Origin: Escherichia coli
Lineage (GTDB): Bacteria; Pseudomonadota; Gammaproteobacteria; Enterobacterales; Enterobacteriaceae
Reading direction: 5' to 3' (one strand)
Assembly (NCBI RefSeq): GCF_024502345.1
Contig: NZ_JALDNN010000003.1
DNA length: 64,000 bases
Below are positions 22,151 to 42,762 of this stretch, piece after piece; positions within the stretch are counted from its first letter, which is position 1, and each line of letters begins with the position of its first letter. The notes beneath the pieces were generated by a model that had not been told where the DNA came from, did no database searches, and saw only the letters and a program-made list of their open reading frames with translations. Both the position numbers and the translations under genes were made by a program.

Positions 22151-22354
22151 TTTCCCATGTCTGAAAAAGGACAATCGAATTTACCAAATCGTAACTAACT
22201 TAGCTCTTAATTGAGCTATTTTCGTTGCGTACTTCTAATGCCAGAAAGTATAAATCAGGCGGTTCATAGCTTACGGGAGATGAATGACAGGCTTTGCCTT
22301 TGTGTTGGGATATTTAATGATTCCTTCCTTCTTACTATATATAGGTGACCCCAA

Positions 22355-23230: not shown

Positions 23231-23288
23231 TCCTGTTAAGGGGAAACCCTGACGGGGCTTCTCTTTGCTTAAATTGAGGAGAGAAGTA

Positions 23289-23666
23289 ATGTCATATCTT
23301 GAATATGTTAATGAAGTAAAAGTGTCCGGGATAGTTATCAGTGCAATGGAGAAAGAAATGACTAGCGGAAACGTTGGGTTATTGATAAAGCTCAAAAACA
23401 GAATGAAAACTGAAATTAATGGTGAAATTACTGAGAGAGAATTTTCGATTCAAATCAAAGTATCACCAGAGATGTATTCAGGCTGTTTCACTGGTATAAA
23501 TCAAGGTGATGAGTTAATGGTCTCCGGTTATCTTGTTGTGGATACCATCACATTGGAAGGGAGAGAGCATCCTCTTGACTACATGAGAGTAGTTGCAACA
23601 AGTAAGTTAGCTCACATACCTAAACCTCCTAAGGGTTTTGGGCAAAGTAGCTTTAGACAGATCTGA
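23289..23666 (+). CDS. Putative OB-fold single-stranded DNA-binding-like protein
   Basis: Pattern VKVSGIVIS...G..V.....L...G...V.GYLVV resembles the SSB/PriB OB-fold layout; weak, by-eye only; start chosen at the ATG following the RBS GAGGAGAG. Confidence 0.3.
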   Translation: MSYLEYVNEVKVSGIVISAMEKEMTSGNVGLLIKLKNRMKTEINGEITEREFSIQIKVSPEMYSGCFTGINQGDELMVSGYLVVDTITLEGREHPLDYMRVVATSKLAHIPKPPKGFGQSSFRQI

Positions 23667-23726
23667 CATTTAAACCACCCAAAAGGGGAGAAATCCCTTC
23701 ATGGGAGTTCTCCCTTAGGAGATCCC

Positions 23727-24713
23727 ATGAAACAAAAAATAAGGCCGACTGCATTTTGCAGTAAGCAAATGGATTTTTTCTCTATATTCGATTTTGAAGA
23801 AGAGGAAAAAGAAATAATAACTATAGTTGAGTCTCCACTTGACTATATAAATGATGCAATAGCCGCACAACAAAGTATTCAATCAGAAGATAAACATTCA
23901 GGCCCGGAACTGGAGCCTAGTGTGTCGGAAGATGTTGCTTTGCCTGGTAATTGTCCCAAACTACTCAAAAATCAAATTCTGCATGACATTAGTTTTGCTG
24001 CGGAAACTGATTATCTCTTCACTCTAGAAGAGTACAGTGCGGAGTTAGGTGGTCTGGTTTTTGACTGGGCCCCTGAAGATGTATATCAGTTATACGTCGT
24101 CGCAATGGAAGAGTCGTTGGAAAACGTAAGGCATCTCGTCATTACAAAATCACTCTATTCCACTGATGAATTCGGTAACATAACCGTGAATCCGCTTCTT
24201 GAAGCCGAAACACGGTGGTATATGTCGAAATCATTTGAGCTTACATGTGCCACTCATGGTATTGATGCTATTGAGTTCAGGTCAGAGCTTAAAAAAAGCT
24301 TATATGAATATACGCACAGTTACGGAGGTGAAAATGCTGAATTAGCTCGTTATCATCAAGATAAAGAGGTTATTCTGCATGATTGTAAGGAAGAGATGGG
24401 ATGGGATATCTTTTTCGAACAGGACTATTTGTTGCAAGAAAACAAACTGGCAATGAAATGGACTGATCGGGATATAATGGATGTCTATTCTAAAGTATTT
24501 AAATCAACAATTAATTTGTTTGAAAAACTTGTCGTTAATAACAAGTTAACCTCAAGAGATACTTTTGGTTGGGTAATCGTAAACCCTACATTTGAACGCC
24601 AGTTTGAATGGATTGAGTCAGAAGTATTCGAAATCGTAGGAACTCATCTTGGTTACAACGTTGCCGCTATCAGAACACAGATGGCGACGGCGTGTAGGAT
24701 GACTTTCCACTAA
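23727..24713 (+). CDS. Hypothetical protein
   Basis: 328-aa ORF preceded by a GC-rich leader hairpin; no motif recognised. Confidence 0.35.
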   Translation: MKQKIRPTAFCSKQMDFFSIFDFEEEEKEIITIVESPLDYINDAIAAQQSIQSEDKHSGPELEPSVSEDVALPGNCPKLLKNQILHDISFAAETDYLFTLEEYSAELGGLVFDWAPEDVYQLYVVAMEESLENVRHLVITKSLYSTDEFGNITVNPLLEAETRWYMSKSFELTCATHGIDAIEFRSELKKSLYEYTHSYGGENAELARYHQDKEVILHDCKEEMGWDIFFEQDYLLQENKLAMKWTDRDIMDVYSKVFKSTINLFEKLVVNNKLTSRDTFGWVIVNPTFERQFEWIESEVFEIVGTHLGYNVAAIRTQMATACRMTFH

Positions 24714-24772
24714 CATGCCACTGGCAAACATCTGCCAGCGGGCGGTGTTTGCATTTTACCGGAGTTTTAAAA

Positions 24773-25825
24773 ATGACTAACGCCGCAACTGTATTAAAAT
24801 CCGACAATTCCGTACAGGAAGAAATCATTGGTAATCTGTTACCCGCAAATGTTATATCAAGTAAGATGTTTGCGAATAAAGAACAGTATTATCTTGTCAA
24901 AGCAAAAGATTTATTTGGCATTCCTGAGATGGATGAGGATATGATTGTTCCAGTGTTTAAAAAGTTTTCTCCATATCGTGCGAATCTGAATAAGGACTAT
25001 ATACCAAATTCTCGAATACTTGAGCAAGTAGTAAAATTGCTTGTAAGTAACGATATAGATTTGAGTGTATGCCTGAAAGGAGAATCTGGATCAGGTAAGA
25101 CTGAAATGGCAATGTATATTAGCCATATGCTGAACTGGCCGCTAACCATAAAGCAAATCAACAGCAATATTCGCGCTGATGAGCTGGAAGGTGAGCGTAG
25201 TCTTATTAACGGTAACACCAGTTTTGTGCCTAGCGAGCTTGTAACGGCATTTCAGGAAGGCCACCTCATTCTTCTGGATGAAGTGGACAAGATTGACCCT
25301 GATACTGCCGCAAAGCTTCATATGCCTATAGAGCGAAAGCCCTGGTCACTAGCTGCCAACGGTGGCGAAGTGGTTAAGGCAAATAAGTTTACGCGATTTA
25401 TGGGTACTTCAAACACAAACATGAGTGGGGGATCTCGTAAGTTCGTTTCATCGCAGCGGCAGGATGCAGCGTTTATCAAGCGCTTCCTGATTGTGGAGAT
25501 GGAAAGGCCTTCAGAGGTTGCATTAACCAACGTTTTGCTTAAACGCTACAATAACCTGCCTATGCTGGTAATTGAAAAATTCGTTTCGGTAGCCGTTGCA
25601 GTAAACAACACAGGAACTGACGACAGTGTAATGGATATACGCCAGCTTGTGGCATGGGTTGGAACGTCAATGACGTTAAAGACCATGTCCTTACTGGATA
25701 CATTTAAAATTGCTTTTGCGTCGGCTCTGCCTGCACATGCCACTGGTATGGTGTTGGAAGCCATCGACTTAATTCTCGGTGACGACAAGAACCGTACAAT
25801 GGAGTATTACACTGCAAAAAAGTAG
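24773..25825 (+). CDS. AAA+ ATPase, CobS/MoxR-like (AAA_5-type)
   Basis: Walker A GESGSGKT and Walker B ILLDEVDK; size about 350 aa; start set at the ATG after a SD-like CCGGAG. Confidence 0.6.
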   Translation: MTNAATVLKSDNSVQEEIIGNLLPANVISSKMFANKEQYYLVKAKDLFGIPEMDEDMIVPVFKKFSPYRANLNKDYIPNSRILEQVVKLLVSNDIDLSVCLKGESGSGKTEMAMYISHMLNWPLTIKQINSNIRADELEGERSLINGNTSFVPSELVTAFQEGHLILLDEVDKIDPDTAAKLHMPIERKPWSLAANGGEVVKANKFTRFMGTSNTNMSGGSRKFVSSQRQDAAFIKRFLIVEMERPSEVALTNVLLKRYNNLPMLVIEKFVSVAVAVNNTGTDDSVMDIRQLVAWVGTSMTLKTMSLLDTFKIAFASALPAHATGMVLEAIDLILGDDKNRTMEYYTAKK

Positions 25826-25863
25826 TTATAGATGGGACGAGTTATCAGAAGGCTGAATGCCGT

Positions 25864-26133
25864 GTGACAGACTTTGCTCATCTTACGTTTTACGGTTTTC
25901 TGAGTGCAAACGGAACTGAAACTTTCGTGATTGCACAAGATGGAAATCAATATATAGGTCTGAAGCAGCATAATAATGACTATTCATTTATTTGTTATGA
26001 AGTCTGTAACAAAGATATGGAAGCCATGATTAAGGGCCTTGAATCAAAAGGATTCATGTATCAAGGGAGCATTCAATCGGCGGATGTCGAAAATGAATTT
26101 CCTGGAATTCTTTTAACAACACTTGAAAAGTAA
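25864..26133 (+). CDS. Small hypothetical protein
   Basis: 89-aa ORF between the AAA+ gene and the next gene. Confidence 0.3.
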   Translation: MTDFAHLTFYGFLSANGTETFVIAQDGNQYIGLKQHNNDYSFICYEVCNKDMEAMIKGLESKGFMYQGSIQSADVENEFPGILLTTLEK

Positions 26134-26203
26134 TATTATTAACCCTATCGGGAAATCTTTCCCGACGGGGAGGTTTTCCCATTTCTAAATCTGGAGAAAA
26201 CCT

Positions 26204-27331
26204 ATGACTTTCAATACTTCTAAACTTAATAAAGTTTCTGCAAAGGAAATCAGTGAAAACTTTATAAAAGCATATCCTGACTTGCAGAAAGGTGCTGTTA
26301 TAACAAAAATTGAAATTAGTGGGTGTCAGGGCTCTCGGCGAACTGATAAAATCGAACTGTCCTATGGCGGTGATGATATAACAGACCAGAAGAGCGTGTC
26401 TAAAAGCGAAGTTCGCTGGATAGACATAAAGGCACTGAGTTTCAAAAGCACTATCACTAGTCGAATTTCAACCCTTTGTTCACGGTTGTGCATCCGCTAT
26501 AGCAATATGTGGATACTGCCAGTTGAAAGGATGGAGGAGTTTCTCGAAGAGGCACAAGAAATCGAACGTGAATTTCAAGCCGGTATCCAGAACGTGGTTG
26601 ATAACTATGACACTCATATTCAGGCTGAGAAAGATCGCAGTCCGTTGATGTCAGATTTAATTGACCAGTTGAAATTGACTAAAGATGATTTTGTTAAATC
26701 ATTCCGGTTTAATCTGGCACATTTCATTCCGTTTTCACCGATTAGTGTGGAGGGGGATGAAACGCAGGACTTTTATCAAGAACAACTGATAACTGACTTG
26801 GCCGATGAAGCTATGAAGGTTTATACAAAAATCAGCAAAAATGATAATTTGCGTTCCAGCACGATTGACCGATTAAAGCAGATGCAGGATAAAATAATTA
26901 GCTTCATGTTCATTCATAAAGAGGCTGTTGTTCTTGCAGAAGCTATTAAGCATATCATGAATAATTTACCAAAAGGTGCCATTTCTTCTCCCCGTGATGT
27001 TGCGGTATTAAAGCAGTGGTTCTATTTCATGAGCGATGCGTCAATGCTGAAACGTATTATCTCCGGTGAACAAAAGGTAACCGACTGGCTGGATTCCATA
27101 ACCCGGTCATTCAATATCGATTCACAGGTTACAGCGGCTAACTCTCTGAATACTGCTGAGGATGATGTTTTTTCTTCAGCAAATGTTTTCAGAGAAGACC
27201 CGGTTGAAGATCTTGAGAACAAGGCAGTGAATGCACCTGAGCCTGCTGTTGGCCCTGATGAAGATGTTTCTATTCAGGCCAGTGGTAGTAATAGAGCATT
27301 TGACTGCGAACTCGAATTGACCGGTTGGTAA
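26204..27331 (+). CDS. Hypothetical protein associated with the AAA+/vWA pair (possibly the DUF3150-type partner seen with CobS/CobT-like pairs)
   Basis: 375-aa ORF located between the AAA+ ATPase and the vWA protein; family assignment is from recollection of gene-neighbourhoods, not a search. Confidence 0.35.
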   Translation: MTFNTSKLNKVSAKEISENFIKAYPDLQKGAVITKIEISGCQGSRRTDKIELSYGGDDITDQKSVSKSEVRWIDIKALSFKSTITSRISTLCSRLCIRYSNMWILPVERMEEFLEEAQEIEREFQAGIQNVVDNYDTHIQAEKDRSPLMSDLIDQLKLTKDDFVKSFRFNLAHFIPFSPISVEGDETQDFYQEQLITDLADEAMKVYTKISKNDNLRSSTIDRLKQMQDKIISFMFIHKEAVVLAEAIKHIMNNLPKGAISSPRDVAVLKQWFYFMSDASMLKRIISGEQKVTDWLDSITRSFNIDSQVTAANSLNTAEDDVFSSANVFREDPVEDLENKAVNAPEPAVGPDEDVSIQASGSNRAFDCELELTGW

Positions 27332-27408
27332 TTTAGTCTTGTAAAAATATCCCCAGATGGGTACTTCACCATCTGGGTGAGTACCCTTTATCAAATAAAG
27401 GTACTCAA

Positions 27409-29421
27409 ATGAAATTTGATTTAAAATCTTCACCACGCCATATTCAACGCCTGACGAATATAGCCAGCGTGATAAGCGGTATAAATGGGATTTATGTAAT
27501 TATTGACAATAAGGTGAGTACACCTTATTTCAACACCCAAAACAATGTCTGTGTTTTACCTAACGGTGATTATAGCGATGAGAGATTTGTCAAGCTAATT
27601 GAAGGATTCATATGTCATGAAGCAGGACACGGTCGTTATACAGAGCATGAAGTATACCGTGAAGCTTTTGTTGGAGAATTGATCAATGCAGATGGCTTCA
27701 TCAGTATTGATGATGACTTGAAGGCTGATTTTCAAAACCTAAAACAAAAGCAAAAAGCATATGCTCGTGCTTGTCGACTAAAAGGACTTATTAATCTTTT
27801 TGATGATGTCCAGATGGAAGAGAAGACGGGTATTGATTATCAGGAGGCAAAAAAACGCCTCGCGGTGACTTATGCCTTGATGGTTGAAGCTGGGCGAATG
27901 ACGGTTGATATTTCTTCAACCCCTCAAAACCCGGTTCAGTTTATTGAAATGTACCTGCTTAATACATTGCGGGTTAACGTTCTCCAACAAGAAGGGCATA
28001 AAGAAACGCTTGACCCATTTTTCGATTATGCAAAGAAAATCCTTGCACCTGTAACTTCAGAAGTCGATGAGATCATTCATCAAGCTCTAAGTTGCAAAAG
28101 TACGCAAAATTGCGATTCTCTGGCGCGTAAAACTCTGGCTCTTTTAGAGCGTTTAAGGGATGAAGCAAAAGAGAAACAGCAAGAAGAGGAGCAGTCGAAA
28201 GACCCGCATGACGATACAGATGAATCATCTGGCTCTGAGAATGAACCTGATACCGAACCCAATGGTGATAGCCAGGGTGAAGGGGATGGTGATAAAGAAG
28301 GTCAAGGCGATGATTCTGGTGATGGTAAGGCGCCTGCGGAAGGTAATGGGTTACCGGACCAATCCGGAGGGGATGAACAAAATGCTGAGAACTCTAACGG
28401 CGAACCTGATGGTGAGTCTGAAGGTGATGAATCGGCGACCCCCGGCTCGGATGATGCTGACTCGACACCTTCCCTAAACGACAGTTCAAATGGAAATTCT
28501 TCTGATGGGGAAAGTAACTTTTCTCCTGAACAGTGGGATATGCTTGCCAAATTGCTGGATGATTTTTTAAACAGTGATGAGGAAAGCGAGGATTTTCATG
28601 AGGTTCTTGCAAAAGAGATCTCCGTAATTGCTGCCAGTGTGTCGGATGAGGTTAAAGCTGAATTTGGTGCAAGTGAGTGGGATGTTCCAGATTTGAACAT
28701 TGATCTGAATGTCTACAATGAAGCATTAAATATCAGCCAGACCCTTGGGGCAGATTTATCTGTTTTACAGCAGGTAAAAATGCGTGGTCAATTTAAAACC
28801 CGTGATAGAGGCTTGTCATTCGATATTAATCGACTGATCCAGTCTCCGATGGGTGTTAGGGATGTATTTCGGTCACAAAGCGAATCTAAAAACCGGGGCC
28901 ACGTCGGCTTGGTCATTGTTCGTGATATTTCAGGTTCAATGAGTCTGGAACACCGTTATATCCATGCAATTAAGACTGACCTTGCATTAACTCTGGCAAT
29001 TGAAGCTATTTCAAAAATGCATGTTGCTAATGTGATTTATCCGTTTGTAGACAAAGATTTTGAAGTTATCAAAACGTTTGATGAAAACGCGGAAGAGAAA
29101 CTTTCAAAATTCTCACTTGGCTGCAAGGGCAATAATACCCCAACGGGTTCTGCATTAAATGCTGCTTTAGAGTTGTTACTTGAAAGCCAGTTTGACAGGA
29201 AAATTGTTTTCCTTATTACTGATGGTTATCCGACTGAGTCGGCTTACACCATTAATGATGTTTTTTCAGTTGCTGAAAGTAACGGCATTGAAATCGCTGG
29301 TGTTGGTATTAAAACTGATGTGTTGATGGGTTTTAATGAGGGCACCTTCGTAAATGTTGATGATATTTCTTTATTGCCGAATGAGGTCAGTAAATTAGTA
29401 CATCAAATTCTATCTAATTAA
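27409..29421 (+). CDS. vWA-domain protein with long acidic linker (CobT-like partner of the AAA+ ATPase)
   Basis: C-terminal MIDAS-like motif VIVRDISGSMS followed by FLITDGYPTE; a central D/E/G/S-rich low-complexity region of roughly 120 aa. Confidence 0.55.
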   Translation: MKFDLKSSPRHIQRLTNIASVISGINGIYVIIDNKVSTPYFNTQNNVCVLPNGDYSDERFVKLIEGFICHEAGHGRYTEHEVYREAFVGELINADGFISIDDDLKADFQNLKQKQKAYARACRLKGLINLFDDVQMEEKTGIDYQEAKKRLAVTYALMVEAGRMTVDISSTPQNPVQFIEMYLLNTLRVNVLQQEGHKETLDPFFDYAKKILAPVTSEVDEIIHQALSCKSTQNCDSLARKTLALLERLRDEAKEKQQEEEQSKDPHDDTDESSGSENEPDTEPNGDSQGEGDGDKEGQGDDSGDGKAPAEGNGLPDQSGGDEQNAENSNGEPDGESEGDESATPGSDDADSTPSLNDSSNGNSSDGESNFSPEQWDMLAKLLDDFLNSDEESEDFHEVLAKEISVIAASVSDEVKAEFGASEWDVPDLNIDLNVYNEALNISQTLGADLSVLQQVKMRGQFKTRDRGLSFDINRLIQSPMGVRDVFRSQSESKNRGHVGLVIVRDISGSMSLEHRYIHAIKTDLALTLAIEAISKMHVANVIYPFVDKDFEVIKTFDENAEEKLSKFSLGCKGNNTPTGSALNAALELLLESQFDRKIVFLITDGYPTESAYTINDVFSVAESNGIEIAGVGIKTDVLMGFNEGTFVNVDDISLLPNEVSKLVHQILSN

Positions 29422-29492
29422 ACTCTACCCAATCGGGGCAAAACGACGCCCGGTTGGGTCGCTTTGCTCCCTGAAGGATTAAGGAGCAATAT

Positions 29493-29714
29493 ATGACTCA
29501 GATAAAGACTTACCGTGTCGAGTATGAAAAAGTCGGGACGATGCATCGTGTCCGTATTTTTGGTCGCATGGGTGAAATTGTCAAAAGTGAATTGCCAGAA
29601 GAAAGAATTCTCCGGGATGTATCTATACCAGAGGGTAATGGAGAAATGGCAACGTCAATGGTTGATGGTTTTATCCAGCGTCTTGAAAATATCGGCTTCA
29701 AGACTGAAGCGTAA
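29493..29714 (+). CDS. Small hypothetical protein
   Basis: 73-aa ORF with a leader hairpin and an SD-sequestering hairpin upstream. Confidence 0.3.
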   Translation: MTQIKTYRVEYEKVGTMHRVRIFGRMGEIVKSELPEERILRDVSIPEGNGEMATSMVDGFIQRLENIGFKTEA

Positions 29715-29807
29715 TTGTTGAGGGCTCTTGTGGGCCCTCATTCTTAGATTCTGCGTTGTGGGTTTCTCCCTGTTTTCTGCATCGCAGAGGGCATTGAGAA
29801 ACCCACA

Positions 29808-31061
29808 ATGCCAGATAAGAGAGAACAAATGACTTATGCATCCCAGGCTGTTAAGCGTACACCACATGAAGTCACTGACCACTTTATAAAAATGGTTCAC
29901 GCTCGTATAGCGGAAGTATCAGGCTGGCGCTATGTATTCGATAGAATACCGGCATTTAAAGACGCTTGTGATAAAGCACCTGGCCAGGTTCCTTGCCCAT
30001 TTAGTGGGGTCGGGAAATCAAAGTTCCGGTTCCGTAAAAAGGACCTCTTTACCGGTTGTGCCATTCACAATGATTTTCCAGTGAATGCATTTTGTGACGG
30101 TATTGATGTATTGGCAGAGTACTACAAGCTGAGCAAGACCCAGACTTGTAAGAAGATCCTGACTGATTTCTTTGGGATGGATTTGTACGCTCCATTAACT
30201 GATGCGGATCTCGAAAGTGAACGTCGTTATAAATCAACAGTTCGTGCAACCGAAACGCTTGACAGCGATGAAGTTGAAAAACGAGGGCGTAAACTTGAAG
30301 TGATATATCACTATACCGGTGAAATCAAACCTGAGAGCCCTGTGTGGGTGTATCTCCGAAATCGAGGTCTTAATCGAGTTCTGAGCAACCTTCCCAAGGA
30401 TTTAGGTCTGAACAAACGACTTTACTACATGGATAAGTCACTGGAAAAACCCACGATTTACCCGGGAATGATCGCAATTTATCGCGATACCCGTGGGCGT
30501 CCTCTGACAATCCACAGAACGTTCGTCGAGTTAAATGGTGATAAGGCACATGTTGAGAATCCGAAACTGATGATGAAACCGCCTGCCGATATGACTGGCG
30601 GCTCAATTCAGCTGTACGATCCACACTTCAATCCAGGTACCCGTACCTGGACGTTAGGTGTGGCTGAAGGCATAGAAAACGCGCTGTCAGTTACTGAAGC
30701 GACTTCAACACCGTGCTGGGCCGCGAGCTCTGCCTGGTGCCTTGAAAACGTTGAAGTGCCGGATAGTCTCCTGCCTCCCCCTGGTGTGAAAGTAATACAG
30801 TTTTACATCTGGGCGGATAAGGATCTTGTGAATACAAAAGGCACTTCCCCGGGAATGGAGTCAGCTAAACGACTTCAGGAACGTATGAAAGAGTTTTTTG
30901 CAAAGCGATATCCCACTTCAGAGCTGACAATTAAAGTCTTTGAACCTGATTTCGATATTCCTGTAGGGAAGAAAGGAGTCGACTGGAACGATGTACTAAA
31001 ATTAACAGGACCGGATGGATTCCCCGTAAAATGGGCTCCTGAATGTCTTGCTCAGCTTTAA
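29808..31061 (+). CDS. Toprim-domain DNA primase-like protein with N-terminal zinc-binding region
   Basis: Cys/His cluster PCPFSGVGKSKF...TGCAIHNDFPVNAFCDG, a Toprim-like acidic motif TLGVAEGIENALSV and a downstream WADKD segment. Confidence 0.55.
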   Translation: MPDKREQMTYASQAVKRTPHEVTDHFIKMVHARIAEVSGWRYVFDRIPAFKDACDKAPGQVPCPFSGVGKSKFRFRKKDLFTGCAIHNDFPVNAFCDGIDVLAEYYKLSKTQTCKKILTDFFGMDLYAPLTDADLESERRYKSTVRATETLDSDEVEKRGRKLEVIYHYTGEIKPESPVWVYLRNRGLNRVLSNLPKDLGLNKRLYYMDKSLEKPTIYPGMIAIYRDTRGRPLTIHRTFVELNGDKAHVENPKLMMKPPADMTGGSIQLYDPHFNPGTRTWTLGVAEGIENALSVTEATSTPCWAASSAWCLENVEVPDSLLPPPGVKVIQFYIWADKDLVNTKGTSPGMESAKRLQERMKEFFAKRYPTSELTIKVFEPDFDIPVGKKGVDWNDVLKLTGPDGFPVKWAPECLAQL

Positions 31062-31335
31062 ATCCGATAACTCCCCCGCCTTTTCAGGCCGGGGGGGGTT
31101 ATCTCTTTAGTGTTTATTTACGTTAAATCCTAAACAGATAATCCGATTTCCTTCGTGAAAATCACCTGTTATTCAGGTTTTTTTTACGGCTGAGATGCTT
31201 GCTCAGTTTAATAAATGTGCGATACAGCTGGCTACGGTCGGTTGTATGACATGGTATATCCATAAAACTTAAAACCCCTGACGGGAGTATTACCGTTAGG
31301 GTGATGCTCATCGTTAAATATCGGAGAGCATTGTT

Positions 31336-31860
31336 ATGAATATTGAAAATCAAGATTTATTTAATACGTTCGCTGCTGTGATTTCATCTCATATCGTTGA
31401 GCAACCATCTTCGTGTTATTACCTTCATGATAATGAAATTGACTTCACGATTTTAAAACACAGCATAATAGATAAAGACAAAAACCTGTTGTACGTTATT
31501 CGTCCTTCAGGAACCTGTTTGTTGCGTTGTGATAAATACTTCTTTCCGAATTACTATCTTACAAGTCGTGGAGATTATAAAGCATTTAAGTATGTGCATT
31601 TTAATCTTGCAACACGAGAAGCGGAAGAAATCACCTGGCAGCAAGCTTTTGAAATTTTGTCCAAGCCGGGAAGACCTCCATTAAGAGGTTCACTTGGTAA
31701 ATTTGATTATTTAAAACTTGTTATTGATGATCTTCGTGCGCGAGGGTATGCCGATTTCCTTCCAGCATACAACCTTGATGGCCTTCGTCACTTTGCAGTA
31801 AAGGATGAGCGACCATCACTTGTCAGTTATATCGACAATGTCATGGCACTTTGCGCATAA
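31336..31860 (+). CDS. Hypothetical protein
   Basis: 174-aa ORF preceded by a leader hairpin. Confidence 0.35.
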   Translation: MNIENQDLFNTFAAVISSHIVEQPSSCYYLHDNEIDFTILKHSIIDKDKNLLYVIRPSGTCLLRCDKYFFPNYYLTSRGDYKAFKYVHFNLATREAEEITWQQAFEILSKPGRPPLRGSLGKFDYLKLVIDDLRARGYADFLPAYNLDGLRHFAVKDERPSLVSYIDNVMALCA

Positions 31861-31937
31861 AGATAACACATATTTTTACTACATCCCTGATGGCACCTCC
31901 CATCGGGGTGGCCCTCAGAGTTGAATCTGGAGGTCTT

Positions 31938-32816
31938 ATGAAATTAGCTACAGATCTGGTCAATGCGGTTCTGATAAAGAATGGCATTGTACCAACTTCC
32001 ATTAATGAGTTGCCTGTAACGTCGCTGGTAAAGCCATTGACACAAGTGCATCTCAGCCTGTATCTGAAAACAACGCATTTATCTCAGTTCGTCCCTGACT
32101 ACGTTGAGTCTCTGAAAGATTGTCCGGTTTCGTATGATATCGGCCTTGAACTTCAGCAGTGTATCAACAGTGCTGAATTGCTCTGTGAAGACATGGAGTC
32201 ACTTGAGTTTATCTCTGTATGGATAGAGCTCTATACGTGTAATTCAAAGCAACAGCGGTTTGAGAAAAGTAACTTTTCTTTTCGAACTGAAGATATCGAG
32301 CTGGCTAAGATGCTGTCTTGCTCGCATGAAATCTTAATAAGTCAGGCGGCTTGTTTCTGGCTTTTGTATTTTGAAGATTTCATGAAATATGTTCGTAATA
32401 GGCTCTGTGCATTACTCAGACAGGTTTTAATTTTGATTGCAGGACTGCGAAATGTATACCTGCAACGGAATGAAGATCAGTTGATTAAGAGAGTTAAGCA
32501 CGGGAATGAAATGCTGGAGGTGACTCTTAAAGCTGTTGCACTATGTTCAATGGAAAGGTATCTGAAATCATATGCCTCTTTACGAACAGAAGCGGCGGCT
32601 TCTGGGTTTATCAAATGCATTCAGTCTTATATCAGTACTGGTTGGAGACATGGCTATATAGTCTGTCAATATTCAAAAAATGGACGGTCTCTTGGTAAGT
32701 CATTACCACTTTTTATAAAAGAGACATCTGAGCATAATATACAGAAACGTGTCAATCGCCTTATATCTTCCACGATTTCGGGGCGAAATAAAGATTTAGG
32801 TCTTTACGATTTCTGA
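31938..32816 (+). CDS. Member 1 of a tandem five-gene paralog family, unknown function
   Basis: Shares the N-terminal pattern (L/I)(V/I)xA(V/F/M)L and the size class with the four following genes; start set at the ATG after the SD CTGGAGG. Confidence 0.45.
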   Translation: MKLATDLVNAVLIKNGIVPTSINELPVTSLVKPLTQVHLSLYLKTTHLSQFVPDYVESLKDCPVSYDIGLELQQCINSAELLCEDMESLEFISVWIELYTCNSKQQRFEKSNFSFRTEDIELAKMLSCSHEILISQAACFWLLYFEDFMKYVRNRLCALLRQVLILIAGLRNVYLQRNEDQLIKRVKHGNEMLEVTLKAVALCSMERYLKSYASLRTEAAASGFIKCIQSYISTGWRHGYIVCQYSKNGRSLGKSLPLFIKETSEHNIQKRVNRLISSTISGRNKDLGLYDF

Positions 32817-32832
32817 TTAACATTACCCATCC

Positions 32833-32869
32833 GGGGATTACATCCCTGATGGGTGTAATCCCATTTTTT
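32833..32869 (+). terminator. Intercistronic hairpin with U-run between paralogs 1 and 2 (attenuator-like; an alternative pairing is possible)
   Basis: GGGGATTACA (32833-32842) pairs with TGTAATCCC (32854-32862) and is followed by T6; alternatively CCCATC (32826-32831) pairs with GATGGG (32848-32853). Confidence 0.45.
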
Positions 32870-32886
32870 ATTTAAGTGAGGATTAC

Positions 32887-33822
32887 ATGAAAATTATTGA
32901 GAAAATCATTAATGCATTTCTGATATCGCGTAAACATTCAGTGAAGGTCAGTAATGTTATCTGCTTGAGTGGCACCGACGGTAAATTTACTGGAATATGC
33001 TGTGACGCCGATGTTTCATTTGATTTTCTTTATTCGTATGCCCCCGCATACAGTTCAACATTTTTAGATATCCCGTTTCCTGGGTTTGAAGACCAGGACA
33101 TCGCGGATTGTGTTAAATGTCAGTTAGATGTAGTTAAAAATAAACGGAATCGGTCTTTTTTAATTGACCATATTAGATTTCCAGTTTCCTCAAGGGAAGG
33201 ATTCACTCTGACACGCGGTGATAGTTACGACGTGACTGAATGTGAATATAATAAGGAACGATTGCTACATCTGACCCGACAAGGACGTTTTTGTGAAGAC
33301 TATCTCACGTTCAAGGATGGCCTGAGTTCCTTCTTTTCATTTGTGAATTTCGAATTACATGAAATAGTGAAGGAAGGTATACGTTTGGCACTTGATGTTT
33401 TAAACAAGATTACATCTGATCAACCAGACCGTCTTATAAAAGACTTTAAGTATCATGATTGCTTCGGCAGTTATAATGTACAAATATTTTCTAAGGGTCT
33501 GCCAGTTGATATCCTTGAAACGATGATTGCACCTGATAGGTTGTTGTCTAACTTGTCAGGTAGTCGTCAGATTATGAAAAATGCAAGTCGCTATCTTAAA
33601 GGCTTTGCCCTCAGTAATCGTGTTTACATGAAATACGGATGGCGTTTAGCAGATGTTGACACATCTGACTATGCGAAAGTTATGTCAGATAGAGAAATGC
33701 ATGCCAGAGATGATCTTAAGGCGTTTTGCAGTGTCTTTTTTAAAGAGTGTTTCGCATCCGGAAAATATGAATACGAAGCATACCTGAGTGAAAGACAACA
33801 CGCGATTCGTAACGGGTATTAA
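32887..33822 (+). CDS. Member 2 of the tandem paralog family
   Basis: N-terminus MKIIEKIINAFL parallels MKAIYKIIEAML of member 3; the C-terminal segment NASRYLKGFALSNRVYMKYGW parallels NHVNRYLSGRVMKRRIYAVIEA. Confidence 0.45.
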   Translation: MKIIEKIINAFLISRKHSVKVSNVICLSGTDGKFTGICCDADVSFDFLYSYAPAYSSTFLDIPFPGFEDQDIADCVKCQLDVVKNKRNRSFLIDHIRFPVSSREGFTLTRGDSYDVTECEYNKERLLHLTRQGRFCEDYLTFKDGLSSFFSFVNFELHEIVKEGIRLALDVLNKITSDQPDRLIKDFKYHDCFGSYNVQIFSKGLPVDILETMIAPDRLLSNLSGSRQIMKNASRYLKGFALSNRVYMKYGWRLADVDTSDYAKVMSDREMHARDDLKAFCSVFFKECFASGKYEYEAYLSERQHAIRNGY

Positions 33823-33899
33823 TACTTATTATCAACTTATCTAATCCCTGAGGGAATTCTTCCCTTGGAGAGGATTCCCTCTTAACCGAGGGCTACAAA

Positions 33900-34820
33900 A
33901 TGAAAGCGATTTATAAAATAATTGAAGCGATGCTGGTGAAAATGGGCTTTGAAGGTGCCGTGATCCAAAGTGTCAATCTGGAAACGGGTGTGATTCAGAG
34001 TCTAGTTGTTAAGGCTGATATTCCTGTCCGGACTTTAATGCCGCATTTAAGGCGATATCTGCGCGATTGTGAGCCTTTATGGGGACATGACGTGGATTAC
34101 CACCCTATAGCACAATATTGCTCAGGAGCTGCGTTGTTGAAGGCTGGGCCGGTCACTCTTGAAACCTTTCGGTTTGAGGTTTCAGTGTCAACTGCTCACC
34201 TGCGGCTTGTGGATATTGAGCCGGACTGTCTAAATGAGGGTGTGAACCGTGAAAAACTGGAGTATGTATATTACCGCTCCAGCAATGCAGACAAGGATCT
34301 AATACTTGGTATGGTTGAAAAAGGACATAATTTTATCAATCATCTGCATGAACTTTTACGCTCGCGCTTATCAACGGCTTTGCCGCTGATTTTCGCAGTT
34401 ACAGAAAAGATTGCGGAGAGTTCAGTTCCACAAGTAGTCACCAGCTTTTTCAGTGTTGACCATCAAATCAATGCCCAGATAGTAGTCGAACCTGTACCCG
34501 TTTCAGTCGCAGACCAGATAATTTCTGCTGACTGGAATGTGTGTAGTGTTTCAGGAGCGGATAAGTTCCTGAACCATGTTAATCGTTATCTGTCGGGTAG
34601 GGTGATGAAGCGGCGTATTTACGCTGTTATAGAAGCTTGCGACGGTGGATCTTTATCCCTCAATGCGAACTTAGGTTGCTTTACATCACCTCTTCTCGTA
34701 ACTGAGTATAAAATGGTTCAGTCACACTCTTCATCGCTTTATCGAAAGGCTATAAATAACTCGCTTAAGCAAGTTAATTCGTATGCTCCAGAGCATTCAG
34801 ATGACCTGCTTTCTATGTAA
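33900..34820 (+). CDS. Member 3 of the tandem paralog family
   Basis: See member 2; similar length of 306 aa. Confidence 0.45.
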   Translation: MKAIYKIIEAMLVKMGFEGAVIQSVNLETGVIQSLVVKADIPVRTLMPHLRRYLRDCEPLWGHDVDYHPIAQYCSGAALLKAGPVTLETFRFEVSVSTAHLRLVDIEPDCLNEGVNREKLEYVYYRSSNADKDLILGMVEKGHNFINHLHELLRSRLSTALPLIFAVTEKIAESSVPQVVTSFFSVDHQINAQIVVEPVPVSVADQIISADWNVCSVSGADKFLNHVNRYLSGRVMKRRIYAVIEACDGGSLSLNANLGCFTSPLLVTEYKMVQSHSSSLYRKAINNSLKQVNSYAPEHSDDLLSM

Positions 34821-34892
34821 TTAATTTTACCCATTGGGGAAGCGTATTCCCCGTGGGGGTTGCTTCCTTTCTTCATTAAAGAGGAAGTGAAT

Positions 34893-35828
34893 ATGTTTAA
34901 TGAAAGTGATGATAAAAACTTTGTTAGTGCAATGCTTAAATGTCAACTTGGCCTGAATATAAGCCAAGAGGATATTACAATATATGACAAAGAAAATCAT
35001 TTTGAACAACTTTCTTTTAAAGCAAATGTGGCGCTTGATGATTTGTTATTTTATCTGGATTTATATATATCAGAATTGATTAAGCATAATGCGCCGTATT
35101 CTGAAACTGAAGTCCTTCGGACTAAAATCAAATACTTTCTTAAAGTATATGAAAAGTCTGGTTTTCAGAACATAAGAATTCGCGGTTATCATAACGCGCA
35201 CAGCACTATAGATATTGTCGATATCGCATCATTAATATTGGCGGGGTCTGTACCGGAGTCTGAACATGATTCAATAGATCCTGTTTTAAGAAAGGAAATC
35301 TATCAAAATCGCATGAGTGTTGAGGGTAAAGTTCTCATTGCCCGTTTTGCACTTAAGCAATTTTTCCATTCTGATTTTGGTGATTTCATCTTAGAGTTCG
35401 AGAAAAGTATCTCCAAGTGTTTGAATACTTCTCTCCAGATAATTAAATCTGTAAAGAACTCATTTAACCGTTTAGGTCAATATCAATATCAGCGTCGTGT
35501 AAAAGATGACCTGACTTTGCATCTTGATTTGAATACAGATGAATACCCGGCCTGTATGCCAGACCTTTACATCGGTTTCAAGGAGTCTGAAGGGACGACG
35601 GGAGTGTATCGCGATGATGAAAAAATCATTCGTCTTTATACTGGCGTTAGTTCCGGAAAGGATGTTCCTGTAATGATGACCGTTCGATTCACTGGCTGTG
35701 ACGGGAGTGTTTTGTCTGAATCATCGCACGGTACTTTCTGTTCCGTGGGACCTACCGGCCGAGTGCAGGTTTGTGACAGAGTTGCGTTGGTCCAAGAAGC
35801 GGTCGAAGAGTTACGGGATGTTGTTTAA
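34893..35828 (+). CDS. Member 4 of the tandem paralog family
   Basis: Clear paralogy with member 5: VEGKVLIARFALKQFFHSDFGDFI versus VDGQVLIARFALEKFWDTHFIGLI, and YQRRVKDDLTLHLDL versus YTRRITDELSLHISL. Confidence 0.5.
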   Translation: MFNESDDKNFVSAMLKCQLGLNISQEDITIYDKENHFEQLSFKANVALDDLLFYLDLYISELIKHNAPYSETEVLRTKIKYFLKVYEKSGFQNIRIRGYHNAHSTIDIVDIASLILAGSVPESEHDSIDPVLRKEIYQNRMSVEGKVLIARFALKQFFHSDFGDFILEFEKSISKCLNTSLQIIKSVKNSFNRLGQYQYQRRVKDDLTLHLDLNTDEYPACMPDLYIGFKESEGTTGVYRDDEKIIRLYTGVSSGKDVPVMMTVRFTGCDGSVLSESSHGTFCSVGPTGRVQVCDRVALVQEAVEELRDVV

Positions 35829-36004
35829 CCCTTGTTTTTTACCTCTTCATTCCAAAAAGTAACTTTGTTCTACCAAATGACCGCGCTACCTATTCTGATC
35901 AACTTGCAGGAAAGAATGGCGCAGTAGTACATATTTTTAATCCACCCACTGGGGAAGTCGCTCCCCTGTGGGGCACTTCCTTTAATAATCCTGAGGAAGT
36001 GAAG

Positions 36005-36961: not shown

Positions 36962-37005
36962 GTCCTGAAGGTTGAATTATATATTTTCAGGTTTTTATAC
37001 TTCTA

Positions 37006-37038
37006 AGAAGGCACGGTTATCCGTGCCTTTTTTTTTGC
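37006..37038 (+). terminator. Rho-independent terminator ending the paralog array
   Basis: AAGGCACGG-ttat-CCGTGCCTT followed by T9. Confidence 0.55.
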
Positions 37039-42739: not shown

Positions 42740-42762
42740 CGACAGACCAGAAGCGGGAAGCC

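What the first reader, a model, noticed from the sequence alone, without database searches (positions are those of the whole stretch)
23241..36004. Nearly every cistron in the 23-36 kb block has a conserved GC-rich stem-loop leader plus an SD-sequestering hairpin
Upstream of at least 12 consecutive genes there is a 30-40 nt GC-rich nested hairpin with the core CCCA-N2-3-GGGG(A/C)...(T)CCCC...GGG. Examples are 23675-23714, 26141-26180, 27349-27386, 29425-29460, 31271-31307, 31881-31916, 32824-32863, 33843-33882, 34827-34867 and 35943-35980, with weaker variants at 23241-23262, 24719-24750 and 38563-38590. Each is followed within 10-40 nt by a second short hairpin whose 3' arm contains the Shine-Dalgarno sequence, for example 34864-34887 CTTCC...GGAAG, 29466-29487 GCTCC...GGAGC, 33877-33892 CCCTC...GAGGG and 23261-23287 CTTCTCT...AGAGAAG. 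A repeated modular leader of this kind, with the SD occluded, suggests coordinated post-transcriptional control of the whole operon: RNA-thermometer-like melting, an RNA-binding protein, or processing sites. IncHI-type plasmids are known for temperature-sensitive transfer, so a thermosensor role is a speculative but testable idea.
Basis: partly seen in the sequence, partly recalled or inferred. Interest (0 to 1): 0.8.

Follow-up and report, generated by a model that had tools for sequence, protein, structure and literature searches.

The report
Repeated translation-blocking RNA switch leaders
Eleven genes of one operon on this Salmonella Typhi resistance plasmid are each preceded by the same three-hairpin RNA leader that hides the ribosome-binding site; the leader family is shared with the anti-defence operons of IncC and other related plasmids, and what switches it on is unknown.

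Summary
The window is IncHI1 plasmid pHCM1. Eleven cistrons between 23.2 and 36.0 kb carry a GC-rich hairpin (P1) followed at once by a hairpin (P2) that pairs the Shine-Dalgarno sequence. These folds are far beyond chance. In the roughly 215 of 216.9 kb of pHCM1 scanned, canonical leaders occur only in this operon.

The 5' arm of P2 is also specifically complementary to the GGG-plus-loop part of P1. This gives an alternative hairpin (Alt) about as stable as P1. Alt cannot coexist with P1 or P2, and it leaves the ribosome site free.

The same architecture, on the sense strand only, precedes 5-15 genes in the syntenic operon of IncHI2, pNDM-MAR-type, IncC, Vibrio, Shewanella and Methylomonas plasmids.

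A review states that a strong translational attenuator lies upstream of bet in SXT and is also present in IncA/C plasmids. IncC bet carries this leader.

Best reading: a modular translational attenuator with a built-in anti-sequestor helix, closed by default and opened only when the 5' strand of P1 is held or unwound. The trigger is not established. Simple thermometer melting is not supported. Novelty: a new member of a partly known kind; the operon-wide, three-helix description appears undescribed.

The parts
23232..23291 (+). Leader of the 125-aa OB-fold-like gene (variant with CCTGTTAAGGGG). P1 23232-23257; Alt 23238-23266; SD hairpin P2 23258-23286; ATG 23289.
   Evidence: (z = -4.8). The preceding stop codon lies 1 nt upstream.
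23678..23729 (+). Leader of the 328-aa gene. P1 23678-23705; Alt 23684-23716; P2 23709-23722; ATG 23727.
   Evidence: (z = -3.3). In the IncHI2 orthologue the minimum-energy fold is the Alt hairpin.
24717..24775 (+). Degenerate variant before the AAA-ATPase gene. Hairpin GCCACTGGCA..TGCCAGCGGGC 24717-24743; GGTGTTTGC (24744-24752) is complementary to the loop GCAAACA; weak SD hairpin; ATG 24773.
   Evidence: Sequence read directly. The fold is not significant (z = -1.3). Listed as doubtful.
26143..26206 (+). Leader of the DUF3150 gene. P1 26143-26170; Alt 26150-26180; P2 26171-26203; ATG 26204.
   Evidence: (z = -4.3). P2 changes compensatorily in IncHI2 (AGGTTTTC/GAAAACCT to GGGTTTC/GAAACCC).
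27351..27411 (+). Leader of the VWA gene. P1 27351-27377; Alt 27359-27386; P2 27378-27407; ATG 27409.
   Evidence: (z = -5.3). Blocking the first 7 nt of P1 raises predicted SD accessibility from 0.04 to 0.71.
29428..29495 (+). Leader of the 73-aa gene. P1 29428-29458; Alt 29435-29470; P2 29464-29489; ATG 29493.
   Evidence: (z = -3.8). By my reading of the sequences, an Alt pair outside P2 changes C:G to A:T in IncHI2.
31275..31338 (+). Leader of the 174-aa gene, the first cistron after a terminator-like hairpin. P1 31275-31301; Alt 31281-31314; P2 31303-31332; ATG 31336.
   Evidence: (z = -4.8). A P1 pair changes C:G to A:T in IncHI2.
31885..31940 (+). Leader of p1 (292 aa). P1 31885-31908; Alt 31892-31913; P2 31910-31935; ATG 31938.
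   Evidence: (z = -3.0). Compensatory changes in P2 and Alt.
32826..32889 (+). Leader of p2 (311 aa). P1 32826-32853; Alt 32834-32862; P2 32855-32886; ATG 32887.
   Evidence: (z = -4.8). Triple covariation in IncHI2: GGGGATTACA/GTAATCC/GGATTAC becomes GGGGATCACA/GTGATCC/GGATCAC. Alt plus ATTTTTTATT is the top terminator-like hit.
33846..33902 (+). Leader of p3 (306 aa). P1 33846-33870 (weakened by one C.A mismatch); Alt 33852-33879; P2 33877-33892; ATG 33900.
   Evidence: (z = -2.0; the minimum-energy fold here is Alt-like).
34830..34895 (+). Leader of p4 (311 aa). P1 34830-34859; Alt 34836-34869; P2 34860-34890; ATG 34893.
   Evidence: (z = -3.6). Compensatory changes in P1, P2 and Alt.
35945..36007 (+). 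Leader of p5 (318 aa). P1 35945-35973; Alt 35951-35982; P2 35974-36001; ATG 36005.
   Evidence: (z = -3.6).

Best explanation
Each leader is a cis-acting translational attenuator made of five RNA segments. They lie between about 50 and 65 nt upstream of the start codon and the start codon itself.

**Closed state.**
- Segment 1 (A)CCC-N3-4 and segment 2 (GGG plus the loop) pair with segment 3 (CCC-N3-5-GGG). This forms hairpin P1.
- Segment 4 pairs with segment 5, which contains the Shine-Dalgarno sequence. This forms hairpin P2.
- The ribosome site is therefore closed. This is the minimum-energy state by about 10 kcal/mol.

**Open state.**
- Segment 4 is also complementary to segment 2.
- Segment 3 can fold on itself as a CCC:GGG tip.
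- A single alternative hairpin (Alt) can therefore replace both P1 and P2 and leave the last ~22 nt before the AUG single-stranded.

**Why a trigger is needed.** Alt pairs cross the outer pairs of P1. Alt can form only after the 5' strand of P1 (segment 1) has been held or unwound. Once formed, it should persist for seconds to minutes (inference from computed barriers).

**Proposed function.** The operon is transcribed as a unit, but each cistron is translated poorly by default. It is de-repressed when something occupies segment 1. The candidate I favour is the ribosome finishing the preceding cistron where the stop codon lies a few nt upstream, that is, translational coupling by a structural relay. 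The stop-to-P1 spacing would then set how strongly each gene is coupled.

**Status of each step.**
- Shown here: the three mutually exclusive helices, their specificity, their conservation, and the sense-strand bias.
- Taken from the literature: a strong translational attenuator exists upstream of bet in SXT and is also present in IncA/C plasmids.
- Inferred: that this reported attenuator is the leader I find at IncC bet, that Alt is used in vivo, and what triggers it.
For: **Structure and chance.**
- P1+P2 folds have z = -2 to -5.3.
- The detector finds 8 leaders in the block against 0 in shuffles.

**The third helix.**
- For leaders segmented only by their P1+P2 fold, the duplex energy of a leader's own segment 2 with its own segment 4 is -10.6 kcal/mol. 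The cross-leader value is -6.9. Permutation p < 5e-5 in each of three plasmids.
- On 86 leaders from 8 plasmids the z-scores are: P1 -14.6, Alt -16.3, P2 -15.2, and the control (segment 2 x segment 5) -2.7.

**Energies.** P1 -16.0 +/- 2.5, Alt -16.8 +/- 3.2, P2 -11.1 +/- 2.7 kcal/mol. The closed state beats the open state by 10.3.

**Covariation.** Between IncHI1 and IncHI2 there are compensatory double changes in P1 (6), P2 (6) and Alt (5). Paired columns have diverged 16.5%, unpaired columns 32.5%. The p2 leader shows a triple covariation.

**Strand.** The sense strand folds better in 39 of 49 leaders (p = 6e-7), and 84 of 1006 pairs are G:U.

**Geometry.** P1-to-ATG distance is 49-79 nt, whereas stop-to-P1 distance is 0-723 nt. 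The Alt 3' end lies mostly 18-26 nt from the ATG.

**Kinetics.** Findpath barriers are about 20.7 kcal/mol closed-to-open, about 10.5 open-to-closed, and about 19 for P1-to-Alt.

**Relay.** Covering the first 3-7 nt of P1 raises predicted SD accessibility. The mean goes from 0.28 to 0.42, and 24 of 75 leaders exceed 0.5 against 3 of 75 uncovered. Covering 11 nt returns it to baseline.

**Context.**
- The first cistron of the operon (start 22355) has no such leader.
- In the ~215 of 216.9 kb of pHCM1 scanned, canonical leaders occur only in this operon.
- The same family is found in IncHI2, pNDM-MAR-type, Shewanella, Vibrio, Methylomonas and IncC plasmids.

**Literature.**
- A strong translational attenuator lies upstream of bet in SXT and is also present in IncA/C plasmids (PMC4542580).
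- A predicted structure sequesters the RBS of vcrx089, and a deletion there has polar effects on ssb/bet/exo (PMC7498323).
Against: **No experiment on these leaders.** All energies and barriers are nearest-neighbour predictions without pseudoknots, proteins or ribosomes.

**The ribosome trigger cannot be general.**
- Only 16 of 77 leaders have the preceding stop within 7 nt of P1, and 49 have it more than 11 nt away.
- Some leaders precede first cistrons after gaps of 113-723 nt.
- With segment 1 covered, the predicted opening is partial and heterogeneous: about one third of leaders.

**Ascertainment.** The detector used for the large set requires an Alt hairpin, which inflates 'own' energies. 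The unbiased test is the smaller one.

**Noise in the orthologue comparison.** Sequence-based orthologue alignments also show many 'broken' pairs: P1 19, P2 31, Alt 13.

**Unverified link to the literature.** I could not read Garriss et al. 2013. That the SXT attenuator is this same element rests on the review's sentence plus my finding of the leader upstream of IncC bet.
Confidence: 0.6

Rival explanations
1. Static damping only. The leaders are constitutive SD-sequestering attenuators that set a low, fixed translation rate for each cistron of a strongly transcribed operon. The Alt complementarity is never used as a switch. It would be a folding aid, or a by-product of segment 2 and segment 5 both being G-rich.
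For: - The closed state is favoured by about 10 kcal/mol, and the closed-to-open barrier is about 20 kcal/mol.
- No general trigger could be identified.
- The review describes the SXT element simply as a strong attenuator of highly transcribed genes.
Against: - Alt complementarity is leader-specific, so it is not explained by shared G-richness.
- It extends beyond the part of segment 4 used in P2.
- It shows compensatory changes.
- It is kept in plasmids whose proteins are only about 20% identical.
- Alt is about as stable as P1 in most leaders.
Confidence: 0.2
2. A trans-acting factor drives the switch. A plasmid- or host-encoded RNA-binding protein, or an sRNA, binds P1 or segment 1 of all leaders and sets the state of the whole operon. 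One example would be a repressor that accumulates after plasmid establishment.
For: - One architecture is shared by all cistrons of a single operon and occurs nowhere else in the ~215 of 216.9 kb of the plasmid scanned.
- (A)CCC...GGG(T) blocks are conserved across very distant plasmids.
- Leaders also precede first cistrons, where no upstream ribosome is available.
- The operon encodes many proteins of unknown function.
Against: - P1 loops are not conserved in sequence.
- The conserved CCC/GGG blocks are fully accounted for by the need to pair in two registers.
- There is no GGA in the P1 hairpin loops (sequences), which argues against CsrA.
- No candidate RNA-binding protein was identified by NCBIfam, PHROGs or Pfam.
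Confidence: 0.2
3. RNA thermometer. The SD hairpins melt with temperature and link expression to the temperature-sensitive transfer of IncHI plasmids.
For: SD sequestration is the hallmark of RNA thermometers, and the plasmid is IncHI1.
Against: - Predicted SD accessibility is unchanged from 15 to 50 C.
- P2 averages -11 kcal/mol with perfect stems.
- There is no Rfam thermometer match.
- The same leaders occur in IncC, Vibrio, Shewanella and Methylomonas plasmids.
- Melting would switch the genes on at high temperature, whereas (from my own knowledge) IncHI transfer is favoured at low temperature.
Confidence: 0.05
4. Processing or stability elements. The hairpins mark or block RNase sites, so that the polycistronic RNA is cut into stable monocistronic pieces, each with a protective 5' hairpin. 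Removal of segment 1 by cleavage might activate translation.
For: - AU-rich single-stranded spacers lie directly 5' of a stable hairpin in most leaders, a usual RNase E context (my knowledge).
- A cut that removed segment 1 would, by the model, open the SD.
- Intercistronic hairpins at every gene recall the T7 early RNase III sites (my knowledge).
Against: - P1 has only 9-11 bp, too short for RNase III (my knowledge of its requirement for about 20 bp).
- A cut in the spacer would leave segment 1 in place.
- This idea explains neither the SD pairing nor the Alt covariation.
- No data on RNA ends are available.
Confidence: 0.1
5. Transcription attenuation. Alt followed by a U-run is an intrinsic terminator and P1 is its antiterminator, giving graded polarity along the operon.
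For: - Alt of the p2 leader plus ATTTTTTATT is the best terminator-like site in the region.
- Several leaders in IncHI2, Methylomonas and IncC have 6-8 T directly after Alt.
Against: - Only about 20 of 69 leaders have at least 5 T in the 8 nt after Alt, and only 1 of 8 in the window.
- P1 forms first during transcription, and the P1-to-Alt barrier is high.
- The arrangement is anchored to the start codon.
Confidence: 0.05
6. DNA-level element. The repeats act as single-stranded DNA hairpins during conjugation, as recombination repeats, or as cassette-boundary sites of a mobile-gene system.
For: - The element is modular, with one copy per gene, and gene content differs between plasmids.
- In IncC an identical leader plus its upstream sequence occurs twice.
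- Roy et al. report repair by recombination between short repeats in that plasmid.
Against: - G:U-dependent strand asymmetry favours sense RNA.
- The element has a fixed distance to the start codon and covaries with the SD.
- No attC core sites are present.
- It has a single orientation and sits in a single operon.
Confidence: 0.03

Closest known systems
Translational attenuator upstream of bet in SXT/R391 ICEs and IncA/C plasmids (Garriss et al. 2013, as cited in PMC4542580), and the RBS-sequestering structure upstream of vcrx089 in IncC (PMC7498323)
   Same: - It lies in the same syntenic operon of MOBH elements, downstream of traN and a helicase gene, with AAA ATPase, DUF3150, VWA and toprim genes.
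- The window's AAA ATPase is 28% identical (E = 5e-27) to the IncC one.
- The same P1/Alt/P2 leader stands upstream of IncC ssb, bet, exo, the AAA gene and about ten other genes.
- It is reported to hinder translation of highly transcribed genes.
   Different: - The literature I could read mentions single sites (bet, vcrx089).
- It does not mention a family repeated before nearly every cistron, a third alternative helix, or IncHI plasmids.
- The primary paper was not available, so I cannot say how much of this it already shows.
ermC/cat-type translational attenuation (my knowledge)
   Same: The leader has consecutive segments with mutually exclusive pairings. The default pairing (1:2 and 3:4 in ermC) hides the SD, and occupying the first segment lets the middle pairing form and frees the SD.
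   Different: - There is no conserved leader peptide or stalling signal. Only the 174-aa gene leader has a candidate uORF (31246-31272), and its stop is not conserved.
- The preceding cistron would have to play that role.
- The module is repeated 11 times in one operon.
Translational coupling by RNA unfolding (E. coli rpmI-rplT at +52 nt spacing, MS2 coat-lysis; review PMC12548453)
   Same: The downstream RBS is closed by structure. The intergenic distance (58-77 nt) is large enough for a new ribosome to load while the upstream one is still at its stop codon.
   Different: - In those cases the upstream ribosome itself unfolds or blocks the structure that closes the downstream RBS.
- Here the inhibitory strand (segment 4) is intergenic and out of reach, so a relay through P1 and Alt would be needed.
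- Spacing allows that relay in only a minority of leaders.
IncI-alpha/IncB repY-repZ control (my knowledge)
   Same: It is a plasmid leader in which termination of an upstream reading frame opens a hairpin that hides the downstream RBS and allows a new pairing with an upstream hairpin loop.
   Different: - The new pairing there is an activating pseudoknot, and the system is governed by an antisense RNA at a single gene.
- Here the pairing is a competing hairpin, no antisense RNA is known, and the module is repeated.
RNA thermometers (ROSE, fourU)
   Same: A hairpin pairs the SD.
   Different: The stems are too stable and perfect. Predicted accessibility is flat from 15 to 50 C, and there is no Rfam match.
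Phage T7 intercistronic RNase III sites (my knowledge)
   Same: A structured element lies between almost every cistron of a long early operon of a mobile element.
   Different: - The helices here are 9-11 bp, not about 20 bp.
- They are tied to the SD by covariation.
- No processing data exist.

Membership tests
SXT/IncC hde (bet-exo) operon translational attenuator | Lies in the syntenic operon of a MOBH conjugative element (after traN and a helicase gene; AAA ATPase, DUF3150, VWA, toprim genes). | tested here: met
   Annotation. The AAA ATPases are 28% identical, E = 5e-27.
SXT/IncC hde (bet-exo) operon translational attenuator | An RNA structure immediately upstream of the cistron pairs its ribosome-binding site. 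| tested here: met
   for the window. for IncC bet (P1 at L016 13912-13941; P2 covers the SD and the AUG) and for the AAA gene (L016 11351-11379).
SXT/IncC hde (bet-exo) operon translational attenuator | Identity with the element mapped experimentally in SXT by Garriss et al. 2013. | not testable with these tools
   The paper is not held and no SXT sequence was fetched. The link rests on the review sentence 'also present in ACPs'.
SXT/IncC hde (bet-exo) operon translational attenuator | Lowers translation of the downstream gene in vivo. | not testable with these tools
   This needs reporter fusions.
RNA thermometer | The SD hairpin melts within the physiological range (about 25-42 C). | tested here: not met
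   Predicted unpaired probability of the SD region is 0.15-0.17 from 15 to 50 C. P2 averages -11 kcal/mol.
RNA thermometer | Match to a described thermometer family (ROSE, fourU and others in Rfam). | tested here: not met
   Rfam at the gathering threshold and at E-value up to 10 gives no relevant hit in 22-40 kb.
ermC/cat-type translational attenuator | Consecutive segments with mutually exclusive pairings, with the SD in the last segment. | tested here: met
ermC/cat-type translational attenuator | A short leader-peptide ORF whose ribosome covers the first segment. | tested here: not met
   There is no conserved uORF. The only candidate is 31246-31272, and its stop is not conserved. Preceding-cistron stops lie 0-24 nt upstream in the window.
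Translational coupling by RNA unfolding | Translation of the upstream cistron opens the structure that closes the downstream RBS. | tested here: inconclusive
   Covering 3-7 nt of P1 opens the SD in about one third of leaders in silico. Only 16 of 77 leaders have a stop within 7 nt. A polar effect in IncC is reported but not resolved.
Intrinsic terminator / transcription attenuator | A GC-rich hairpin directly followed by a U-run. | tested here: not met
   At least 5 T in the 8 nt after Alt occurs in about 20 of 69 leaders and in 1 of 8 in the window. The p2 leader alone fits well.
REP/BIME- or MITE-like dispersed repeat | Sequence-conserved palindromes dispersed over the replicon in both orientations. 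| tested here: not met
   The leaders are on the sense strand only, sit in one operon only in the ~215 of 216.9 kb of pHCM1 scanned, and vary in sequence with covarying stems.
Integron attC site | Inverse core and core sites (RYYYAAC ... GTTRRRY) bounding an imperfect palindrome at the 3' end of each cassette. | tested here: not met
   There are no paired core sites in the leaders. The element is anchored to the downstream start codon.

The most novel reading that the evidence does not exclude
These leaders are an old and so far unclassified family of modular three-helix RNA switches. The family gates translation of nearly every cistron of the establishment and anti-defence operon of MOBH conjugative elements (IncHI1/2, pNDM-MAR-type, IncC and, by inference from a review, SXT, and Vibrio, Shewanella and Methylomonas plasmids). 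The switch responds to a specific event on the 5' strand of P1, either ribosome traffic from the preceding gene or a dedicated factor. Expression would then be all-or-none and timed, for example to the first minutes after entry into a new host.
Probability: 0.3. Interest if true: 0.75.

Novelty: new member of a known kind. Interest (0 to 1): 0.55.

Why it matters
**Medical context.** pHCM1 is the multidrug-resistance plasmid of Salmonella Typhi (my knowledge).

**What the operon does in relatives.** The operon carrying these leaders is the IncHI1 counterpart of the IncC/SXT operon. That operon includes the 'hde' genes, which let incoming plasmids survive restriction and CRISPR cleavage in a new host (PMC7498323).

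**A possible common control point.** Every cistron of that operon sits behind the same closed-by-default RNA switch. Whatever opens the switch would therefore be a single control point for plasmid establishment in several major resistance-plasmid families.

**A candidate RNA family.** The family has no match to any Rfam family in the window at either threshold. About 90 sequence-diverse copies are already in hand, which is enough for a good covariance model.

**Reusable parts.** The module is also a natural example of compact, composable translation attenuators. Their strength may be set by simple parameters: helix balance and stop-to-hairpin spacing.

Tried and rejected
- **Rfam.** Searches at the gathering threshold and at E <= 10 gave nothing relevant.
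- **Protein families.** NCBIfam, PHROGs and Pfam on ten operon proteins found only a primase-like hit for the toprim protein and a very weak SSB/OB signal for the 125-aa protein. No RNA-binding candidate emerged.
- **Covariance model.** The MAFFT alignment of 42 leaders was not in structural register. I therefore did not build a covariance model. I used energy-based own-versus-cross permutation tests and a purpose-written detector instead.
- **Genome-collection scan.** A scan with a DUF3150 profile returned only 3 loci.
- **Pseudoknot idea.** P1 and Alt cannot coexist. The linker between P1 and segment 4 is 0-2 nt, and the pairs cross.
- **Terminator idea.** U-runs after Alt occur in only about 29% of leaders.
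- **Leader-peptide idea.** There is no conserved uORF.
- **Co-transcriptional partition idea.** The computed P1-to-Alt barrier is about 19 kcal/mol.
- **CsrA idea.** There is no GGA in the P1 hairpin loops.
- **attC idea.** No core sites are present.
- **Thermometer idea.** Rejected.
- **Literature.** Searches on IncHI/R27 hairpins found nothing. The primary SXT paper could not be read.

Full report
**What the window is.** The region 23000-36500 is 99.9% identical to pHCM1, the IncHI1 plasmid of Salmonella Typhi. In the annotated record the block is a run of plus-strand genes downstream of the Tra2 genes trhN and trhI. In order, the genes encode:
- a 291-aa protein;
- a 125-aa protein with a very weak SSB/OB signal;
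- a 328-aa protein;
- an AAA ATPase;
- an 89-aa ORF;
- a DUF3150 protein;
- a VWA protein;
- a 73-aa protein;
- a toprim (primase-like) protein.

Then comes a terminator-like hairpin, followed by a 174-aa gene and five genes of about 300 aa.

**Checking the observation.**
- The strict motif CCC-N2-6-GGG-N3-16-CCC-N2-6-GGG occurs six times, all in intergenic leaders of this block. About 0.55 are expected on both strands.
- Folding each intergenic region gives two tandem hairpins, the second pairing the Shine-Dalgarno sequence. Z-scores range from -2.0 to -5.3 for eleven leaders.
- The leaders at 24714, 25826 and 38554 are not significant.
- The toprim gene has a different hairpin of about 30 bp (z = -8.2).
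- A detector that demands the whole architecture finds 8 leaders in the block and none in 60 shuffles of it.
- In the ~215 of 216.9 kb of pHCM1 scanned, canonical copies occur only in this operon.
The corrections are listed under the observation check.

**Anatomy: a third helix.** Reading the leaders side by side shows five segments.
- Segment 1 is (A)CCC plus 3-4 variable bases.
- Segment 2 is GGG plus the P1 loop.
- Segment 3 is CCC-N3-5-GGG(T).
- Segments 1 and 2 pair with segment 3 to form P1.
- Segment 4 follows within 0-5 nt and pairs with segment 5, the SD region, to form P2.

Segment 2 resembles segment 5. In the p2 leader, for example, GGGGATTACAT compares with GAGGATTACATG. Segment 4 is therefore complementary to both.

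With segment 3 folding on itself as a CCC:GGG tip, segments 2 and 4 make one long alternative hairpin (Alt). Alt excludes both P1 and P2 and leaves the last ~22 nt before the AUG free.

The conserved CCC and GGG blocks follow from the need to pair in two registers around a G-rich SD. No sequence-specific reader is needed to explain them.

**Is Alt more than chance?**
- I took leaders segmented only from their P1+P2 fold. Each leader's own segment 2 pairs with its own segment 4 at -10.6 kcal/mol, against -6.9 for other leaders' segments. Permutation p < 5e-5 in IncHI1, the 86%-identity lineage and IncHI2.
- On 86 leaders from eight plasmids the own-versus-cross z-scores are -14.6 (P1), -16.3 (Alt), -15.2 (P2) and -2.7 for the control pairing of segments 2 and 5.
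- That larger set was chosen by a detector that requires Alt, so one search is the unbiased test.
- Between IncHI1 and IncHI2 orthologues there are compensatory double changes in P1 (6), P2 (6) and Alt (5). Paired columns have diverged half as much as unpaired ones, 16.5% against 32.5%.
- The p2 leader shows a triple change: T to C in segments 2 and 5, and A to G in segment 4.
- By my reading of the sequences, the 73-aa gene leader changes an Alt pair lying outside P2 from C:G to A:T.

**Which molecule folds?** The plus (sense) strand folds better than its complement in 39 of 49 leaders (Wilcoxon p = 6e-7), and 84 of 1006 predicted pairs are G:U. With the fixed distance to the start codon and the covariation with the SD, this points to the mRNA rather than to DNA.

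**Distribution.** The same architecture, in gene orientation only, precedes 5-15 genes of the syntenic operon in:
- IncHI2 plasmids;
- Klebsiella pNDM-MAR-type plasmids, whose DUF3150 protein is 41% identical;
- two Shewanella plasmids, about 20% identical;
- a Vibrio alginolyticus plasmid and a Methylomonas plasmid of 54% G+C;
- an IncC plasmid, where it stands before ssb, bet, exo, the AAA ATPase, DUF3150 and others.

An Aeromonas plasmid with the same core genes lacks it. The genes behind the leaders differ between plasmids, so the module travels with the operon type and not with particular genes.

**Energetics, and how it probably works.**
- Across 49 leaders, P1 averages -16.0 kcal/mol, Alt -16.8 and P2 -11.1. 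P1 and Alt are nearly balanced, but P1+P2 beats Alt by about 10 kcal/mol.
- Alt pairs cross the outer P1 pairs. In a pseudoknot-free path P1 must therefore open first.
- Computed barriers are about 19-21 kcal/mol from closed to open, and about 10.5 from open back to closed.
- With usual rate prefactors (my estimate) the leader would never open on its own. Once open, it would stay open for seconds to minutes.
- The default is therefore a closed ribosome site, that is, an attenuator.
- Opening needs something that holds or unwinds segment 1.
- In silico, covering only the first 3-7 nt of P1 raises SD accessibility. The mean goes from 0.28 to 0.42, and 24 of 75 leaders exceed 0.5 against 3 of 75 uncovered. 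Covering 11 nt, which also blocks segment 2, returns it to baseline.

**What could be the trigger?**

In favour of the ribosome of the preceding cistron:
- It arrives from the 5' side.
- The first cistron of the operon has no such leader.
- The stop codon never overlaps P1 and is often close to it.
- Spacing is roughly kept between orthologues. For the VWA leader it is 19 nt in IncHI1 and IncHI2, although by eye the spacers are poorly conserved.
- In IncC a deletion upstream had an unexplained polar effect on ssb/bet/exo.

Against it as a general trigger:
- Only 16 of 77 leaders have the stop within 7 nt, and 49 have it more than 11 nt away.
- Some leaders precede first cistrons after long gaps.
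- Predicted opening is partial.

I therefore hold the relay-coupling idea at roughly 0.3. Within it, spacing would act as a tuning knob: close stops would be coupled, and distant ones strongly attenuated. A trans-acting factor, or purely static damping, remain live alternatives.

**Rivals examined.**
- Thermometer: SD accessibility is flat from 15 to 50 C, so this is not supported.
- Terminator: a U-run follows Alt in about 29% of leaders, although the p2 leader looks like a textbook terminator.
- Leader peptide: only one candidate uORF exists, and its stop is not conserved.
- attC, REP or MITE: not met.
- RNase processing: untested. P1 is short for RNase III (my knowledge).

**What is already known.**
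[quoted passage not shown] - Roy et al. 2020 show that the IncC genes vcrx089-093 (AAA ATPase, vcrx090, ssb, bet, exo) protect the plasmid from restriction and CRISPR on entry into a new host. They also mention a predicted structure sequestering the RBS of vcrx089 (PMC7498323).
- The IncC bet and AAA-ATPase genes carry the leader described here. The window's AAA ATPase is homologous to the IncC one.
- The kind of element is therefore known from single sites in relatives.
- I found no text describing it as a family repeated before nearly every cistron, no text describing its third helix, and no mention of it in IncHI plasmids.
- I could not read the primary SXT paper.

**Verdict.**
- The general interpretation (operon-wide translational control by SD occlusion) is supported.
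- The thermosensor idea is not supported.
- The element is best filed as a new member of a partly characterised attenuator kind.
- The present analysis adds the three-state architecture, its specificity and its wide conservation.
- The trigger is the open question.

Noticed in passing
window 29750-29810 (leader of the toprim gene, start 29829): A different hairpin of about 30 bp (z = -8.2) precedes the primase-like gene. A comparably long hairpin precedes the toprim gene in IncHI2, pNDM-MAR-type, Shewanella, Vibrio and IncC plasmids. It may be an enlarged version of the same switch or an RNase III-type site.
   Followed up: partly
window 31246-31272: A candidate 8-codon uORF (ATGACATGG...TAA) ends 2 nt before P1 of the 174-aa gene leader. 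Its start is conserved in four IncHI lineages. Its stop moves: inside segment 1 in the 86% lineage, and inside segment 4 in IncHI2. No clear SD is visible.
   Followed up: partly
window 33846-33879 (p3 leader): In IncHI1, P1 of this leader carries a C.A mismatch, and the minimum-energy fold is the Alt hairpin with the SD partly free. In the 86% lineage and in IncHI2, P1 is intact. This may be a naturally de-repressed copy.
   Followed up: no
window 31938-36961: The five ~300-aa genes are not one clean paralogue family. p4 and p5 are 27.6% identical over their full length, p2 and p3 match weakly over 101 aa, and p1 matches none of them. None of the three tested (p1, p2, p4) hits NCBIfam or PHROGs; p3 and p5 were not submitted.
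   Followed up: partly
window 22355-31061 versus L016 (IncC) 11413-26238: The block is the IncHI1 counterpart of the IncC/SXT operon that contains the host-defence-evasion (hde) genes. IncHI1 lacks bet and exo in this stretch and carries the five ~300-aa genes instead.
   Followed up: partly
L016 11313-11413 and 16148-16248 (IncC pEC2-NDM-3): An identical leader plus about 40 nt of upstream sequence occurs twice, before the AAA ATPase gene and before the DUF3150 gene. These may correspond to the short repeats that Roy et al. describe as substrates for recombinational repair.
   Followed up: no
L006 7126-7193, 9126-9182, 15429-15490 (Shewanella aestuarii plasmid): Complete leaders point to ATG codons where no gene is annotated. 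This suggests unannotated small genes and shows the leader could be used as a gene-finding signal.
   Followed up: no
L015 (Aeromonas pMCR5_045096) leaders at 8545, 17074, 18242, 18805: This plasmid has the AAA, DUF3150, VWA and toprim genes but no switch. Several of its genes instead have a bare CCC-N3-4-GGG mini-hairpin 2-12 nt upstream of an exposed SD. This may be a reduced remnant of segment 3.
   Followed up: no
window 31072-31100 and 37005-37032: Two terminator-like hairpins with U-runs bracket the second half of the block. The operon is therefore probably at least two transcription units: 22.3-31.1 kb and 31.2-37.0 kb.
   Followed up: no
window 42706-42823: Rfam match to the IS1222 ribosomal frameshifting element (156.6 bits), meaning an IS3-family insertion sequence downstream of the block.
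   Followed up: no
window 27332-27350 versus L003 6146-6164: The spacer between the DUF3150 stop codon and P1 of the VWA leader is 19 nt in both IncHI1 and IncHI2, although by eye the sequences are poorly conserved. This hints that spacer length is under selection.
   Followed up: no
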